This document shows positions 1-3,325 of a DNA stretch of 64,000 bases, in pieces. Position 1 is the stretch's first letter. The number at the start of each line of letters is the position of its first letter. Both the position numbers and the translations under genes were made by a program. Source of the DNA: an uncultured Clostridia bacterium (GTDB taxonomy: Bacteria; Bacillota; Clostridia; TANB77; CAG-508); contig CAKOTF010000008.1 of assembly GCA_934120045.1 (NCBI GenBank), positions 15,534 to 79,533 of the forward strand, in the 5' to 3' direction. The notes below the pieces were generated by a model. The model was given only the letters and a program-made list of their open reading frames with translations, searched no databases and was not told the DNA's origin.

Positions 1-371
1 TTTCAAACTACCGATTTCATTATCTTTTGCTTCTATTTCATATTTAAGTGAACGATTTTCTTTTTCTATCTCAAAAGTAGAATGTTAAAAATCTTTAATC
101 GCCATATTTAAGTCATTTACGTTTCTAATAGTTTTAGTAGTACCTTTTACATCATTATTATAACTTTTTAGTTTCTGGACATCCTCGCTCGAAATAACCA
201 TATTATTTTTATTCATTAGAGTAGGTTTTAAATTATCTAATATTTCATTTATATTAGTGCTTTCATTATCAAGTATTTTAGTTTGCTTATTGTCTTTAGC
301 AAGTTTTTGTTCTTTATGCTCTAATTGTTTCTTGATTTTTCTATCTTCACGAGTTTGATTGTTGTTATATT
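1..371 (-). pseudogene. ORF remnants without a usable start; coiled-coil-rich and relaxase (Mob/Pre)-like in character. The frame runs on from the next gene in a shifted frame and is interrupted by a stop at 85-87
   Basis: Manual minus-strand translation gives ...EARLEYNNNQTREDRKIKKQLEHKEQKLAKDNKQTKILDNESTNINE...MAIKDF*HSTFEIEKENRSLKYEIEAKDNEIGSLK running to the window edge. It is out of frame with the 372..641 ORF. Confidence 0.3.
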
Positions 372-641
372 CTAGTCTTGCTTCTTCAACTCATCTAAAT
401 ATACTTGCTTAACATCATTCACAATATCATTTGTTCCATAAATTATTCTAATTAACTCTCTTTGATTATCATAATCTCTTAAGTTGTGTTTATTAACATC
501 AGATAAATCTTTTGCATTTTGAATTGCATTATTAGATAGAGAAGTAGTGCCAGATAAATTTTCTTTTGCAACTTTCTTTGCTAATTTACTTTTGTTTTTA
601 TCACTACCTAAGTGAAAAGAATATGCCAATTCTTGCTCCAT
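372..641 (-). CDS. hypothetical protein, possibly the N-terminal piece of a degraded mobilisation protein
   Basis: 89-aa ORF with SD (AAAGGAGGT) upstream of its ATG. Its reading continues into 1..371 only in another frame. Confidence 0.3.
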   Translation of the reverse strand: MEQELAYSFHLGSDKNKSKLAKKVAKENLSGTTSLSNNAIQNAKDLSDVNKHNLRDYDNQRELIRIIYGTNDIVNDVKQVYLDELKKQD

Positions 642-838
642 AAAGATACCTCCTTTGAAATTTCTTCGTAGCTGAGGAATTTGGCTTTGCCATAAGTCCT
701 AACCCCCTATGAGTTATGACGTACCATCATAACTCGGGGGCTCTGCTAGGCAATAAAATTTATTTTGTGCAAATAAATTTTATTTAAATTAACTATCGCC
801 ACTTTCATTTTTACTTTGTAAAAACAAAACGTGCCACG

Positions 839-1033
839 TTAATTAGTTGTTTCAGCATTTTCTTCGCAGAATTTTACTGGCTTAACACCTACTGAAATAG
901 GAGTATTATCTTTTGTATAGATTATACTATCATTGCTTTCATCTGGGATATAATCAAATGCTGTATCAATTTCTTGCATTTGAAATTTATCTTCTTCGTT
1001 AATATAGATTATTCCAAACTTGTAAGTTTCCAT
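839..1033 (-). CDS. hypothetical small acidic protein
   Basis: 64-aa ORF inside the remnant-element region; no recognisable motif. Confidence 0.3.
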   Translation of the reverse strand: METYKFGIIYINEEDKFQMQEIDTAFDYIPDESNDSIIYTKDNTPISVGVKPVKFCEENAETTN

Positions 1034-1063
1034 TTTATTATCTGGATCTAATTTATAATAATC

Positions 1064-2611
1064 CTATAAAGGAAACACCCTAACAATAGCACTGTTATCT
1101 TCAACAAAGTTAAAGTAAAACATTTGCTTTTGCACATAGTATGTTGCCTCTGTAAAATGTACATCATAGTATTGTTGTAATCTCATTATTATTTCGCCAA
1201 CTTCTTCCTCTGGTAAATAGTTGCTAAATCTAACACTTCCTAATACATTACCTAATATCATAGGCTTTGTAGTATCGATATAACCTTTATCAAATAACTC
1301 TTGACAAGGCTTACAAATAGATTCTCTAAAATTAATTTGCTTTACTGCTATTACTGTACCTATAATATCAAGTTCTATGTCTTCAACATATCTCATTATT
1401 AAATCAGCTTGTTCTTCTCGTGTATAATCTTTCCAAGTTTTAATTCGTTCTTGATATTCTTTATTTAGCTTAATCTTATTAATAAAATCAATATCTCTTT
1501 TTAGCAAAATATCTCTTGGTGTAAATTTTAAATCTTCTACACAATCAGTAGTATCTAATTTATTTTCAAGTTCTGTAATAGCATTTTCAACTATTTTCTT
1601 TTCTTCATTATATTCCTTTAGTTCAAAAGCACCATTGATATAGGCTTTTTTTATTCTTTCTAGTTTGTTTCTCTGATTGTTTATTTCTTTTTCTAATTGT
1701 TCTTTAGGTTCATCAAATTTTTGCTTTATCATAGACAAGAAGAATTGATTTACAACAGAGTCATATTCGGTTAATTCATCTATAAATTGCTCAAAATACT
1801 CATTTATTACATTTTCTTTAAACTGAACTTTACAATCATTACAATAATAGTAAAAGTATGTCTTGCCATTTTTCTTTGTAGTAGCCTTACCACCTAAAAT
1901 GCGATTACATTTAGGACATTTTAGTTTTTGTAAATATAAATATGTCAATGTTCTTTGATAACTTCTCGAGTTTTTCTTTTTCTGTACTTGGCAATCAGCC
2001 CACATTTCTTTTGAAATAATTGGTTCAACTACATCTTCATAATAAGTAGAGTTCTTTGTTCTTTTTCCGTGAACGAAATCACCTTTATATATTTCATTTT
2101 CAAGAATAGTAACAATAGTGGAATCTCGCCAATTATCTTTTCCTAATACTATTTCTTTATTGAATAGATTACTTATTTTTTGATAAGAGTAGCCATTATA
2201 ATATAAATCAAATATTCTAACTACAACATCTTTAGTAGAATAATCTATTACCAATCTTTTATCTTCGTGCTTATAGCCTAATGGGGCAATGTGAGGAATA
2301 TGACCACATTTAATTGCACCTGCTAGACCTACTTTAGTTCTTTCACTTGTTCTTTCAATTTCATTTTGACTAACACTCATTAATAATCTTGAAATCATTT
2401 TGCCATTGGCACTTGTTGTATTTATTTCATCATTTACACAATCTAAATAAGCATCATTCTCATCTAGAAAAGTCATTAAATTTTCCTAATCATAAATACT
2501 TCTAGTTATTCTATCTAGCTTTAGAGCAACAATAGTATTTATCTTTTTAGCCTTAATATCATCTTTTCATCTTTCAATTTTCAAACCTCCAATCTAACAA
2601 AAAAGAGACAT
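1064..2611 (-). pseudogene. large serine recombinase (resolvase/integrase family), N-terminal catalytic domain disrupted
   Basis: The 470-aa ORF starts mid-domain (...[29 protein letters not shown]...) and carries the recombinase and zinc-ribbon (CPKC...CNDC) regions. Upstream, out of frame, lie the fragment KDDIKAKKINTIVALKLDRITRSIYD* (2521..2600) and a vestigial start MSKVLVLYFDVSF..* (ATG at 2611). About 60 aa of the catalytic domain are missing. Confidence 0.65.
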
Positions 2612-2791
2612 CAAAGTACAATACGAGTACTTTTGACATCTCTTAAATCCGTTTAACAAAATACAATATAATTGTAATATAATATAAATTTTTCAAAGTG
2701 CTCGTAAACATATAGCTTTTGACGAACAGTTATATGTAATTAATTGACTATATTATATCACGATTTCAAGAAATGTCAAATATTTACAATT

Positions 2792-3061
2792 TTATATTTT
2801 TTTCAAATATTCTTCTAACTCTGATAATTTAATCTTTTTAGTTAAGTTAGCGATATAAACATCATTTGAATAATTAAAAACTAAAAAAGTAATATTTTTA
2901 ATAATCACTCTATGTGGCTCAATATATTTAAGATTAGTTTTATCTAGTTTCCTAATGCTACCATTTACAAAAGTAGGAGTAACTTTAGCAAACTCACATA
3001 TAAATTCAAGTCTTTGTTTTAAACTTTCCTCAAATCGCAATTCTTGCTTAATTATCTTCAT
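2792..3061 (-). CDS. hypothetical protein
   Basis: 89-aa ORF between the recombinase remnant and tRNA-Leu. Confidence 0.35.
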   Translation of the reverse strand: MKIIKQELRFEESLKQRLEFICEFAKVTPTFVNGSIRKLDKTNLKYIEPHRVIIKNITFLVFNYSNDVYIANLTKKIKLSELEEYLKKI

Positions 3062-3191
3062 TTTCTTACACCATCCTTTCGTTTGGATGATTTTATATTG
3101 TTTTTAGTCAACAAAAAAATCAACCAGATTTTATTTTCTGATTGATTTTTGTATCTCTCTGTTCTATAAAAAGTTCGAACAGAAACGTCAT

Positions 3192-3276
3192 TGGTGCGGA
3201 TGAAGGGACTTGAACCCCCACGTCGTTGACACTGGTTCCTAAGACCAGCGCGTCTGCCAGTTCCGCCACATCCGCA
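3192..3276 (-). tRNA. tRNA-Leu (anticodon UAG), class II with long variable arm, CCA encoded
   Basis: Reverse complement reads GCGGATGTGGCGGAACTGGCAGACGCGCTGGTCTTAGGAACCAGTGTCAACGACGTGGGGGTTCAAGTCCCTTCATCCGCACCA. It has a 7-bp acceptor stem, anticodon loop CTTAGGA and T-loop GTTCAAG. Confidence 0.9.
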
Positions 3277-3295
3277 TATTTACTTGACAAATGTT

Positions 3296-3325
3296 ATTTT
3301 AGCACAACACTAATTACATTGTCAA
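3296..3325 (-). promoter_or_regulatory. sigma-A-type promoter for tRNA-Leu (TTGACA, 18-nt spacer, TAAAAT)
   Basis: Minus strand reads cTTGACAatgtaattagtgttgtgcTAAAAT about 20 nt upstream of the tRNA 5' end. Confidence 0.4.

What the first reader, a model, noticed from the sequence alone, without database searches (positions are those of the whole stretch)
1..3300. Degraded integrative/mobilisable-element remnant abutting tRNA-Leu
A large serine recombinase gene retains its recombinase and zinc-ribbon domains but has lost most of the catalytic domain. What remains upstream is a vestigial start (MSKVLVLYFDVSF*) and an out-of-frame piece matching the ...VALKLDRITRSI... catalytic motif. Further upstream there are coiled-coil ORF fragments in shifted frames with an internal stop, resembling decayed Mob/Pre-type relaxase sequence, plus three orphan small ORFs. 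The block ends at tRNA-Leu(UAG). Together this looks like the scar of an ICE, IME or prophage that extends left of the window.
Basis: partly seen in the sequence, partly recalled or inferred. Interest (0 to 1): 0.5.

Follow-up and report, generated by a model that had tools for sequence, protein, structure and literature searches.

The report
Decayed tRNA-end-targeting mobilisable element copy
Window 1-3191 is the right-hand part of a dead 5.5-kb copy of a very common gut-bacterial mobile element, and its family, unusually for elements driven by a serine recombinase, inserts at the 3' CCA end of many different tRNA genes.

Summary
Window 1-3191 (minus strand) is the tRNA-proximal 3.2 kb of a 5,476-bp integrative mobilisable element. 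It is inserted directly after the CCA of tRNA-Leu(UAG) and runs 2.28 kb past the left edge of the window.

Both mobility genes are pseudogenes.
- **Recombinase:** intact relatives are 642 aa. The window copy has a 190-bp deletion that removes the catalytic serine, plus two TAG nonsense codons.
- **Mob/Pre relaxase:** it has a -1 frameshift, a 438-bp in-frame deletion that removes the HxDE..PHxH motif, and a TAA stop.

Some details were wrong. 'MSKVLVLYFDVSF' is a translated leader hairpin, not a vestigial start. The VALKLDRITRSI piece is in frame. The 'orphan' ORFs are the recombinase C-terminus, a relaxase fragment and a conserved element gene (orf89).

Comparing 105 related loci adds a family-level result.
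- Members sit after the CCA of 12 tRNA species and tmRNA.
- There is a clean empty/occupied site pair in the window's own species.
- The dinucleotide N72-N73 matches at both junctions in 44 of 45 elements.

I found no published description of this targeting. The copy itself is ordinary decay. The family looks like a new variant of the Tn4451-type mobilisable transposon.

The parts
3192..3275 (-). Intact tRNA-Leu(UAG). Its 3' end ...CATCCG-CA-CCA (3192-3196 = C72 A73 C C A) is the left arm and core of the integration site (attL).
   Evidence: ARAGORN; Rfam tRNA 55.2 bits; junction comparison across loci.
3173..3191 (-). tRNA-proximal end of the element (P' arm): ATGACGTTTCTGTTCGAAC. Family consensus is A[C/T]GACGT[A/T]TCTGTTCGAAC, starting directly after the CCA.
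   Evidence: Conserved at this position in 81 distinct junctions. It is the only copy in the window.
3108..3150 (-). Element-borne hairpin plus T-run, about 40 nt after the tRNA. It is probably a replacement terminator for the tRNA gene.
   Evidence: Fold energy -17.7 kcal/mol, z = -5.3. The sequence is conserved in other loci.
2792..3061 (-). orf89, an intact 89-aa conserved element gene of unknown function. It always lies just upstream of the recombinase.
   Evidence: 3,315 homologues, none with a Pfam domain. A 42%-identical homologue occupies the same position in a second family whose recombinase is 38% identical. The AlphaFold model (pLDDT 72.8) has no significant PDB match.
2752..2779 (-). 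Consensus sigma-70 promoter for the recombinase: TTGACA, 16 nt with an extended-10 TG, then TATAAT.
   Evidence: 12 of 12 hexamer matches.
2599..2644 (-). Conserved terminator-like hairpin plus T6 in the recombinase 5' leader, immediately before the RBS.
   Evidence: Fold energy -18.8 kcal/mol, z = -4.3. The stem is nearly invariant in 40 of 40 loci, and an upstream hairpin has 3 covarying pairs.
839..2577 (-). Large serine recombinase pseudogene. Start is TTG at 2577-2575. A 190-bp deletion has its junction in AAAAGA at 2567-2562 and removes codons ~4-67, including catalytic S15. W94 TGG>TAG is at 2488-2486. E568 GAG>TAG is at 1066-1064. The natural stop is at 841-839.
   Evidence: tblastn of P0001 residues 65-642 covers 2575-842 at 98.3% identity. 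Codon comparison with L001, L008, L081 and L097. Domains.
703..741 (-). G+C-rich inverted repeat (CCCCCGAGTTATGA...TCATAACTC..GGGGG) between the recombinase and the relaxase. It is a candidate oriT or terminator.
   Evidence: Fold energy -27.4 kcal/mol, z = -4.6. Compensatory changes are visible between loci. Function was not tested.
1..641 (-). Mob/Pre (MOBV) relaxase pseudogene, first ~3/4. Start is ATG at 641. The HxxR motif (KHNLR) is kept at 488-477. A -1 frameshift lies in the T-run at 389-388. A 438-bp in-frame deletion (junction 342-331) removes residues 116-261, including HxDE..PHxH. GAA>TAA is at 87-85. The gene continues left of the window.
   Evidence: tblastn of the intact L008 Mob; Pfam Mob_Pre 4.2e-13 and NCBIfam MobV for the intact homologue; indel list and codons.

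Best explanation
**What it is.** Window 1-3191 is the tRNA-proximal part of a dead 5,476-bp copy of an integrative mobilisable element (IME, or mobilisable transposon).

**How intact family members are built (shown).** On the coding strand the order is:
- a P' end with its own hairpin and T-run;
- orf89;
- a strong promoter and a structured leader;
- a 642-aa large serine recombinase (LSR);
- an inverted repeat;
- a ~470-aa MOBV relaxase;
- small or cargo genes, sometimes including TnpV;
- a conserved ~110-nt P end finishing ...GTTGTAGATAACTAC-N8-N72N73CCA.

**How they move (inferred).** The LSR recombines the circular element's attP with the 3' end of a tRNA or tmRNA gene. The crossover is most likely at the N72-N73 dinucleotide, usually CA. 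The element supplies a new CCA and a terminator, so the tRNA gene stays intact. The tRNA's own CCA and terminator end up at the far junction. The relaxase then lets a co-resident conjugative element transfer the excised circle.

**State of the window copy (shown).** Neither step can be done by this copy itself. The recombinase has lost its catalytic serine region and carries two nonsense codons. The relaxase has lost its metal-binding motif and is frameshifted and truncated. The nonsense codons, and in the sister-lineage contig inspected (L081) also a +1 frameshift, came first. The 190-bp deletion is specific to the window's lineage. Both element ends, orf89, the promoter and the leader are still intact, so excision in trans by a helper copy is conceivable but untested.
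For: **Gene identities and lesions**
- establish the gene identities and each lesion.

**Boundaries**
- L082 is the window's own contig.
- The proximal junction is at the CCA, window 3192. The distal end is at L082:14761.
- In-silico excision is colinear with the empty site in strain L094 of the same species.
- L087 is occupied by a 2,986-nt derivative with the same ends. Its flank, ATGACAAATAATATAC, is identical to the empty site.

**Evidence that the family is active**
- 526 relatives were found in GTDB species representatives at 86-97% amino-acid identity, often several per genome.
- 75 of 89 copies keep an LSR ORF of at least 560 aa.
- Insertions follow Leu(tag, taa, caa), Arg, Gly, Thr(cgt, ggt), Tyr, Phe, Cys and Gln tRNAs, and tmRNA.
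- Head-to-tail P-P' junctions exist.

**Crossover position**
- N72N73 is identical at both junctions in 44 of 45 elements: 38 CA, 5 CT, 1 TA. Position -6 differs in 9 of 45.
- CT-type elements are scattered through the recombinase clustering.
- The inferred attP has a perfect 7-bp inverted repeat, TCGTTGG-CA-CCAACGA, centred on this dinucleotide. That centre gives the best dyad symmetry.

**Order of decay**
- L081, L083, L085 and L086 share both TAG codons, the TAA and the relaxase indels, but keep the 190 bp. In L081 that segment carries a +1 frameshift.

**Genetic code**
- TAG ends three other long ORFs in the window, so it is an ordinary stop codon here.
Against: - No excised circle or recombination assay is available. 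The crossover position, the origin of the CCA and the roles of orf89 and the inverted repeat are inferences from comparison alone.
- One element (L050) has TA at the tRNA junction but CA at the far junction.
- The distal end of the only Gln (AG core) insertion could not be found.
- An exact consensus attP pattern gave no hit in JGI metagenome contigs. A relaxed pattern found only tandem junctions.
- The 470-aa ORF has a plausible RBS (AGGAAA). A residual DNA-binding product is therefore not excluded.
Confidence: 0.9

Rival explanations
1. The copy is non-autonomous but still mobile. Its intact ends let an intact family member's recombinase excise and reintegrate it, as with the recombinase-less derivatives. 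This overlaps with the main explanation rather than excluding it.
For: - Both ends match the family consensus.
- 3-3.9-kb derivatives without a recombinase carry the same ends at the same tRNA-Leu in other strains.
- Strains of the same species carry intact copies, for example L094 at tRNA-Thr.
- The same decayed copy appears next to rpe/PknB instead of recG in L085.
Against: - No helper copy lies in the 64-kb window.
- L085 keeps the same tRNA-Leu and promoter region as L081. A chromosomal rearrangement or a chimeric assembly explains it as well as transposition does.
- No excision product was observed.
Confidence: 0.3
2. The 470-aa ORF is a retained, functional DNA-binding protein made of the recombinase domain, zinc ribbon and coiled coil without a catalytic domain. 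It might act as a repressor or a dominant-negative inhibitor of incoming elements, rather than being plain debris.
For: - The ORF is identical in 11 contigs from different samples.
- AGGAAA lies 6 nt before its ATG.
- The promoter and leader upstream are intact.
Against: - Those contigs were retrieved by exact identity, so the conservation is built in by the search.
- The last 74 residues are cut off by a second TAG.
- After the deletion, ribosomes starting at the real TTG terminate early in another frame.
- The neighbouring relaxase has taken three independent hits, which is the pattern of neutral decay.
Confidence: 0.08
3. It is the scar of a larger ICE or prophage, with the recombinase and relaxase as only a corner of it.
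For: Left of the element there are further small genes, including an Amidase_2 and an Endonuclease_NS_2 fragment.
Against: - The distal end of the element is sharply defined at L082:14761 by more than 40 loci with unrelated flanks.
- The sequence beyond it is colinear with the empty site of strain L094.
- Nothing inside the 5.5 kb is a phage or conjugation-pore gene.
Confidence: 0.02

Closest known systems
Tn4451/Tn4453 mobilisable transposons (Clostridium perfringens / Clostridioides difficile): TnpX, TnpV, TnpZ
   Same: - A 5-6 kb element moved by a single large serine recombinase through a circular form.
- A Mob/Pre (MOBV) relaxase with an inverted repeat upstream.
- Some members carry TnpV (PF14198, 2e-37 in L031).
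- A 2-bp crossover logic (PMC5704250).
   Different: - The recombinase is only distantly related: TnpX N-terminal domain E=1e-6.
- It is 23% identical to a recombinase carrying DUF4368 (a domain I associate with TnpX from memory, not checked here), and has no DUF4368 itself.
- Gene order differs and orf89 is added.
- The target is the N72N73CCA end of tRNA/tmRNA genes, not low-specificity GA sites.
NBU1 / Tn4555-type Bacteroides IMEs and classical tRNA-integrating genomic islands
   Same: Integration at the 3' end of a tRNA gene (tRNA-Leu for NBU1), leaving the tRNA intact. The element has its own relaxase and is mobilised by a helper. Tandem accretion occurs at the site.
   Different: - Those use tyrosine integrases with identity segments of ~14 bp or longer, and one specific tRNA.
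- Here a serine recombinase is used, the repeat is 5-6 nt, and at least 12 tRNA species plus tmRNA are targets.
Streptococcal IMEs with serine integrases (families Ser_1-4; one class pairs MobV with a serine integrase)
   Same: A serine integrase and a relaxase with no conjugation pore. The direct repeats are very short.
   Different: Those integrate inside protein genes (rumA, traG, maff2, snf2) and disrupt them (PMC5357655). This family integrates after the tRNA without disrupting it.
Phage large serine integrases (TP901-1, A118/LI, Bxb1)
   Same: Same domain layout. The catalytic domain matches TP901-1 integrase at 3e-21. The inferred attP has inverted-repeat arms around a central dinucleotide.
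   Different: Each phage enzyme has essentially one attB. This enzyme accepts a whole class of sites that share a tRNA 3' end. It also has an extra ~200-aa C-terminal region with no recognised domain.

Membership tests
Large serine recombinase | N-terminal resolvase catalytic domain with a serine nucleophile (PF00239) | tested here: not met
   The window copy keeps only profile positions 88-143 of 145 (E=1e-4, below cut-off). The YMRVS(15)TEDQ region is deleted. Intact relatives meet the feature: P0001 residues 10-155, 3.5e-32.
Large serine recombinase | Recombinase domain (PF07508) following the catalytic domain | tested here: met
   7.6e-18 and 65 bits against a cut-off of 21, ORF residues 82-169.
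Large serine recombinase | Zinc-ribbon domain (PF13408) | tested here: inconclusive
   E=0.015 and 16 bits against a cut-off of 25. CPKC...CNDC is present in the sequence.
MOBV / Mob_Pre relaxase | Motif I, HxxR | tested here: met
   KHNLR at window 488-477. It is conserved in the intact L008 homologue.
MOBV / Mob_Pre relaxase | Motif III, HxDE...PHxH (metal binding), and a Pfam PF01076 match | tested here: not met
   The window fragments give no Pfam hit. Residues 116-261, which include HFDEVSPHMH, are deleted. The intact homologue scores 4.2e-13 and matches NCBIfam MobV below cut-off.
Tn4451/Tn4453 family | TnpX-type recombinase (close similarity, DUF4368 C-terminal domain) | tested here: not met
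   No DUF4368 in P0001. TnpX N-terminal domain scores only 1e-6. P0001 is 23% identical to the DUF4368-bearing recombinase nested in L032. The DUF4368-TnpX link itself is recalled from memory, not tested here.
Tn4451/Tn4453 family | Mob/Pre relaxase (TnpZ) and TnpV | tested here: inconclusive
   Mob_Pre is present. TnpV is present in some members (L031, L091-93) but not in the window copy or L008.
Tn4451/Tn4453 family | GA dinucleotide ends and low target specificity | tested here: not met
   The ends are N72N73CCA of tRNA/tmRNA genes in all 81 distinct proximal junctions examined. About a quarter have no full tRNA called there and are tRNA 3' fragments or tandem pseudo-tRNA ends.
Integrative mobilisable element (IME) | Own integrase and own relaxase, with no conjugation pore | tested here: met
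   Gene content of intact members. In the window copy both genes are pseudogenes.
Integrative mobilisable element (IME) | Defined ends with a matching empty site | tested here: met
   L094 is empty, while L087 and L082 are occupied, all in the same species.
Integrative mobilisable element (IME) | Excision to a circle and mobilisation by a helper | not testable with these tools
   Only tandem P-P' joints were seen in assembled contigs.
tRNA-integrating island with tyrosine integrase | Tyrosine integrase adjacent to the tRNA | tested here: not met
   No Phage_integrase domain occurs inside the element.

The most novel reading that the evidence does not exclude
The family to which this dead copy belongs may be an undescribed class of serine-recombinase mobilisable elements. 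They would use the generic 3' end of tRNA and tmRNA genes as a landing pad: an acceptor/T-arm context plus the N72-N73 crossover dinucleotide. They would also rebuild the CCA and supply a terminator. One enzyme could then enter a dozen different tRNA genes, and a single change in the attP core (CA, CT, TA) would switch the class of tRNAs used. A conserved partner gene, orf89, travels with the recombinase across families whose recombinases are only 38% identical. It may control directionality or target choice.
Probability: 0.45. Interest if true: 0.65.

Novelty: new variant of a known kind. Interest (0 to 1): 0.45.

Why it matters
**The window copy.** It is an ordinary pseudogenised mobile element. 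It matters mainly for annotation: six ORF fragments collapse into two pseudogenes plus one real small gene.

**The family.** This is more interesting, for three reasons.
- In the reviews read here, serine recombinases integrate inside genes or with low specificity, and tRNA 3' ends are treated as the territory of tyrosine integrases (PMC5704250, PMC5357655, PMC4383910). A serine recombinase that accepts many tRNA ends without damaging them would change that picture.
- The family is extremely abundant in small-genome gut Clostridia. There are hundreds of species representatives and several copies per genome. It is therefore probably a major route of gene flow and of rearrangement at tRNA loci in these uncultured bacteria.
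- A large serine recombinase with a short, rule-based target (tRNA-like arm plus a matching dinucleotide) would interest people who engineer integrases.

Tried and rejected
- **DNA searches.** blastn of window 1-3300 against phage and plasmid collections found only the tRNA. tblastn of the intact recombinase against plasmids gave nothing above ~29% identity, so there is no named close relative.
- **Window fragments alone.** Pfam on the window's own relaxase fragments and small ORFs gave nothing significant. Identification needed intact homologues.
- **orf89.** No Pfam or NCBIfam hit. The AlphaFold model has pLDDT 72.8, and the best Foldseek PDB match has E=0.3. Its function is left open.
- **Cargo ORFs left of the window.** No significant family apart from an IS1634-type transposase fragment.
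- **Long direct repeats of the tRNA 3' end.** None exist. The repeat is 5-6 nt.
- **Crossover left of the acceptor-stem 3' strand.** Rejected, because the distal 8 nt never match the resident tRNA. The 8-12-nt resemblances to Leu tRNA ends are better explained by half-site similarity.
- **Crossover strictly inside the CCA.** Not excluded, but it does not explain why N72 and N73 match at both junctions.
- **TAG read-through or an altered genetic code.** Rejected.
- **Distal end of the tRNA-Gln insertion (L078).** Not found.
- **Exact attP pattern in metagenome contigs.** No hit.
- **Rfam.** Only the tRNA.
- **Literature.** Six searches found no description of serine-recombinase elements at tRNA CCA ends. 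The library is incomplete.
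Full report
**1. What is in the window**

All features lie on the minus strand.
- tRNA-Leu(tag) is at 3192-3275 (Rfam 55 bits). recG follows at 3591-5636.
- The 470-aa ORF at 1064-2476 matches Pfam Recombinase (7.6e-18). It matches only the last third of the Resolvase domain (profile 88-143 of 145), and the zinc ribbon only weakly.
- A protein search with the ORF, extended upstream through the stop codon, returned thousands of near-identical proteins. The typical length is 642 aa.
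- Their sequences begin MNEEKKKCGLYMRVSTEDQ... and end ...KFCEENAETTN. They have a complete Resolvase domain at residues 10-155 (3.5e-32) and a Recombinase domain.
- The best solved relative of the catalytic domain is TP901-1 integrase (3e-21). TnpX of Tn4451 scores only 1e-6.

**2. Lesions in the window copy**

tblastn of the intact protein covers window 2575-842 at 98.3% identity.

*Recombinase pseudogene (839-2577)*
- The start is the TTG at 2577-2575, after GGAGG.
- After TTG AAA GAT G the sequence jumps to codon 67. This is a 190-bp deletion within a short AAAAGA repeat (2567-2562). It removes the catalytic Ser15 and shifts the frame.
- W94 is TAG (2488-2486; relatives have TGG).
- E568 is TAG (1066-1064; L097 has GAG).
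- ORF 839-1033 is therefore the recombinase C-terminus.

*Relaxase pseudogene (641 to beyond position 1)*
- The intact homologue (L008, 472 aa) is a Mob_Pre/MOBV relaxase (PF01076, 4.2e-13; NCBIfam MobV). It has the KHNLR and HFDEVSPHMH motifs.
- In the window it maps to 671-387, 390-331 and 342-1.
- It has a -1 frameshift in a T-run (389-388).
- It has a 438-bp in-frame deletion of residues 116-261, which include the metal-binding motif. The junction is at 342-331.
- It has a GAA>TAA change at 87-85.

*Are the lesions real?*
- TAG ends three other long ORFs in the window, so recoding is not an explanation.
- Eleven independently assembled contigs encode the identical 470-aa ORF.
- Four of the five contigs other than the window's own that were inspected (L081, L083, L085, L086) share the two TAGs, the TAA and the relaxase indels, but still contain the 190 bp. 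In L081 that segment carries a +1 frameshift.
- The point lesions therefore came first. The deletion is specific to the window's lineage (L082, L084).

**3. Boundaries**

- L082 is 100% identical to the window over 12,476 nt. It supplies 8.9 kb to the left of the window.
- Comparison with 80 loci from GTDB species representatives shows homology starting exactly after the tRNA's CCA. It ends at a sharply defined, conserved ~110-nt segment...AAATTGATTGATATTTGTATCAATCG...GTTGTAGATAACTAC-N8-NNCCA.
- In L082 the element spans 9286-14761, which is 5,476 bp. In window coordinates this is 3191 down to -2284.
- Strain L094 of the same species has an empty site: tRNA-Leu...CATCCGCACCA followed by ATGACAAATAATATAC... 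and a terminator. In-silico excision of the L082 element is colinear with it.
- Strain L087 carries a 2,986-nt recombinase-less derivative with the same ends. Its far flank is identical to the empty site.
- No phage or conjugation-pore genes lie inside. The only recognisable extra is an IS1634-type transposase fragment.
- This is therefore an IME, or mobilisable transposon. It is not an ICE or a prophage.

**4. The family**

- 526 relatives were found in species-representative genomes at 86-97% protein identity. Often there are two or more per MAG.
- 75 of 89 copies keep a recombinase ORF of at least 560 aa.
- The proximal junction is always ...N72 N73 C C A | A[C/T]GACGT[A/T]TCTGTTCGAAC.
- Where a full gene is called at the junction, the RNA gene upstream is one of tRNA-Leu(tag, taa, caa), Arg(acg), Gly(tcc), Thr(cgt, ggt), Tyr(gta), Phe(gaa), Cys(gca), Gln(ttg) or tmRNA. 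About a quarter of junctions have no full tRNA called. These are tRNA 3' fragments or the tRNA-like far ends of tandem copies.
- Within the window's own species, different strains show the tRNA-Leu site in five states:
  - empty;
  - holding this decayed copy;
  - holding a recombinase-less derivative;
  - holding a second family, with a recombinase 38% identical, an orf89 homologue 42% identical, TnpV and a NikA/PF03432 relaxase;
  - empty, with an intact copy at the neighbouring tRNA-Thr(ggt).
- Head-to-tail P-P' joints occur in chromosomes.

**5. Inferred mechanism**

- For 45 distinct elements with both ends visible, the dinucleotide at -5/-4 (N72N73) is the same at both junctions in 44. 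The counts are 38 CA, 5 CT at Gly/Cys tRNAs and 1 TA. Position -6 differs in 9.
- CT-type elements are scattered in the recombinase clustering, so the switch is easy.
- The reconstructed attP reads ...CTAC TTCGTTGG CA CCAACGA CGTATCTGTTCGAAC. It has a perfect 7-bp inverted repeat around CA, and this centre has the best dyad symmetry.
- The outer AGTT(G/C) motifs are also equidistant from that centre, by my reading of the consensus.
- I infer a 2-bp crossover at N72-N73. The rule that serine recombinases need matching central dinucleotides is established knowledge for this enzyme class.
- On this reading the CCA at the tRNA junction and the hairpin plus T-run 40 nt downstream (z = -5.3) come from the element. 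The tRNA's original CCA and terminator lie at the far junction.
- Recognition of the T-loop (GGTTCGA in the tRNA arm, GTTCGAAC in the P' arm) is a hypothesis only.
- Exceptions and gaps: L050 (TA/CA) does not fit, the far end of the Gln insertion was not found, and no excised circle was seen.

**6. Other conserved parts**

- A 12/12 sigma-70 promoter lies at 2779-2752.
- It drives a leader with one covarying hairpin. The leader also has a nearly invariant 17-bp hairpin plus T6 just before the RBS.
- The G+C-rich inverted repeat at 703-741 (z = -4.6) shows compensatory changes between loci. It is a candidate oriT.
- orf89 (2792-3061) is intact and has 3,315 homologues. It has no family or fold match. 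It keeps its position next to the recombinase in the 38%-identical second family, which argues for a linked function.

**7. Comparison with known systems**

- The gene set (large serine recombinase, Mob/Pre relaxase, sometimes TnpV) and the size recall Tn4451/Tn4453.
- The recombinase is not a TnpX orthologue, however, and the target is different.
- Published serine-recombinase IMEs integrate inside genes or with low specificity (PMC5704250, PMC5357655).
- tRNA and tmRNA targets are described as the usual domain of tyrosine integrases (PMC4383910).
- The large recombinase survey PMC10083194 does not mention tRNA.
- Six searches found no description of this behaviour. The library is incomplete, so prior description elsewhere cannot be excluded.

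**8. Verdict**

- The window copy is ordinary decay and of low interest by itself.
- The family it reveals is a new variant of a known kind and deserves a dedicated study.

Noticed in passing
window 704/705 (equivalent sites in L016:5752, L032:11814, L033:11775, L047:11815, L073:11850): In five other species a second, unrelated mobilisable element of 6.7-8.4 kb is inserted at exactly the same spot. It carries a 555-aa recombinase with DUF4368 and a zinc ribbon, TnpW, a 425-aa Mob_Pre, a radical SAM/SPASM protein and a KilA-N protein. The spot is TAGGGG|GTTAGG, inside the inverted repeat upstream of the relaxase gene. Its ends are AGAACGCTTTAGTTAAGTACACT...AGTGTACTTAACTTAAGTCTACTG. This is a site-specific nesting of one element in the candidate oriT of another.
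   Followed up: partly
L087:7384-10369, also L088-L090, L095, L096: Other strains of the window's species carry recombinase-less and relaxase-less derivatives of 3.0-3.9 kb at the same tRNA-Leu. They have the family's two ends and three ORFs (172, 186 and 128 aa) with no known domain. They may be non-autonomous passengers.
   Followed up: partly
L091-L093:7384 onward: A second element family occupies the same tRNA-Leu CCA end. Its P' start is AAGCAAGTTTTCGTCGAAC. It has an orf89 homologue (42% identity), a recombinase 38% identical and split into 122 + 478 aa, TnpV, a NikA-like protein, a PF03432 relaxase, and NUDIX/metallophosphatase cargo.
   Followed up: partly
window 2599-2745 (-): The recombinase 5' leader has a terminator-like hairpin directly before the RBS. 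An upstream repeat, GTACTTTGA, could pair with the hairpin's 5' strand. This layout resembles a transcription attenuator that would keep recombinase expression low.
   Followed up: partly
L085:1-4250: One contig carries the same decayed copy and the same tRNA-Leu but has PP2C, PknB/PASTA kinase and rpe upstream instead of spoIIIA-recG. This could be a chromosomal rearrangement at the element or a chimeric assembly.
   Followed up: partly
L010:3881, L023:7129, L071:2712: The element also sits directly after the CCA of the tmRNA gene (ssrA) in three species.
   Followed up: partly
L082:13570-13926 (-), about 1.1-1.45 kb left of window position 1: A 118-aa fragment of an IS1634-family transposase (2e-7) lies inside the decayed element. 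This is a further sign of decay or of an old nested insertion.
   Followed up: no
L097:3200-3247 and L097:1846-2799: An intact element abuts only a 19-nt fragment of the tRNA-Leu 3' end. An oppositely oriented 317-aa Mob_Pre gene lies upstream. This may be an insertion into the tRNA-like end of another element.
   Followed up: no
L082:14936-18342 (left of the element, outside the window): Between the element's far end and a RumA-type methyltransferase lie small ORFs, an Amidase_2 protein and a 93-aa Endonuclease_NS_2 fragment. Strains L087 and L094 have different genes there (TM2, DUF2752, MamF-like). The region downstream of this tRNA-Leu is a variable hotspot.
   Followed up: no
window 3383-3574 (-): The 63-aa protein between recG and tRNA-Leu is listed in 9,162 index blocks of the assembly collection. 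Some of those contigs are up to 1.5 Mb (for example GCA_047248085.1). The host is therefore a very common human-gut bacterium with low G+C and spoIIIA genes. A genome of about 1.5 Mb is my guess from the largest contigs only.
   Followed up: no
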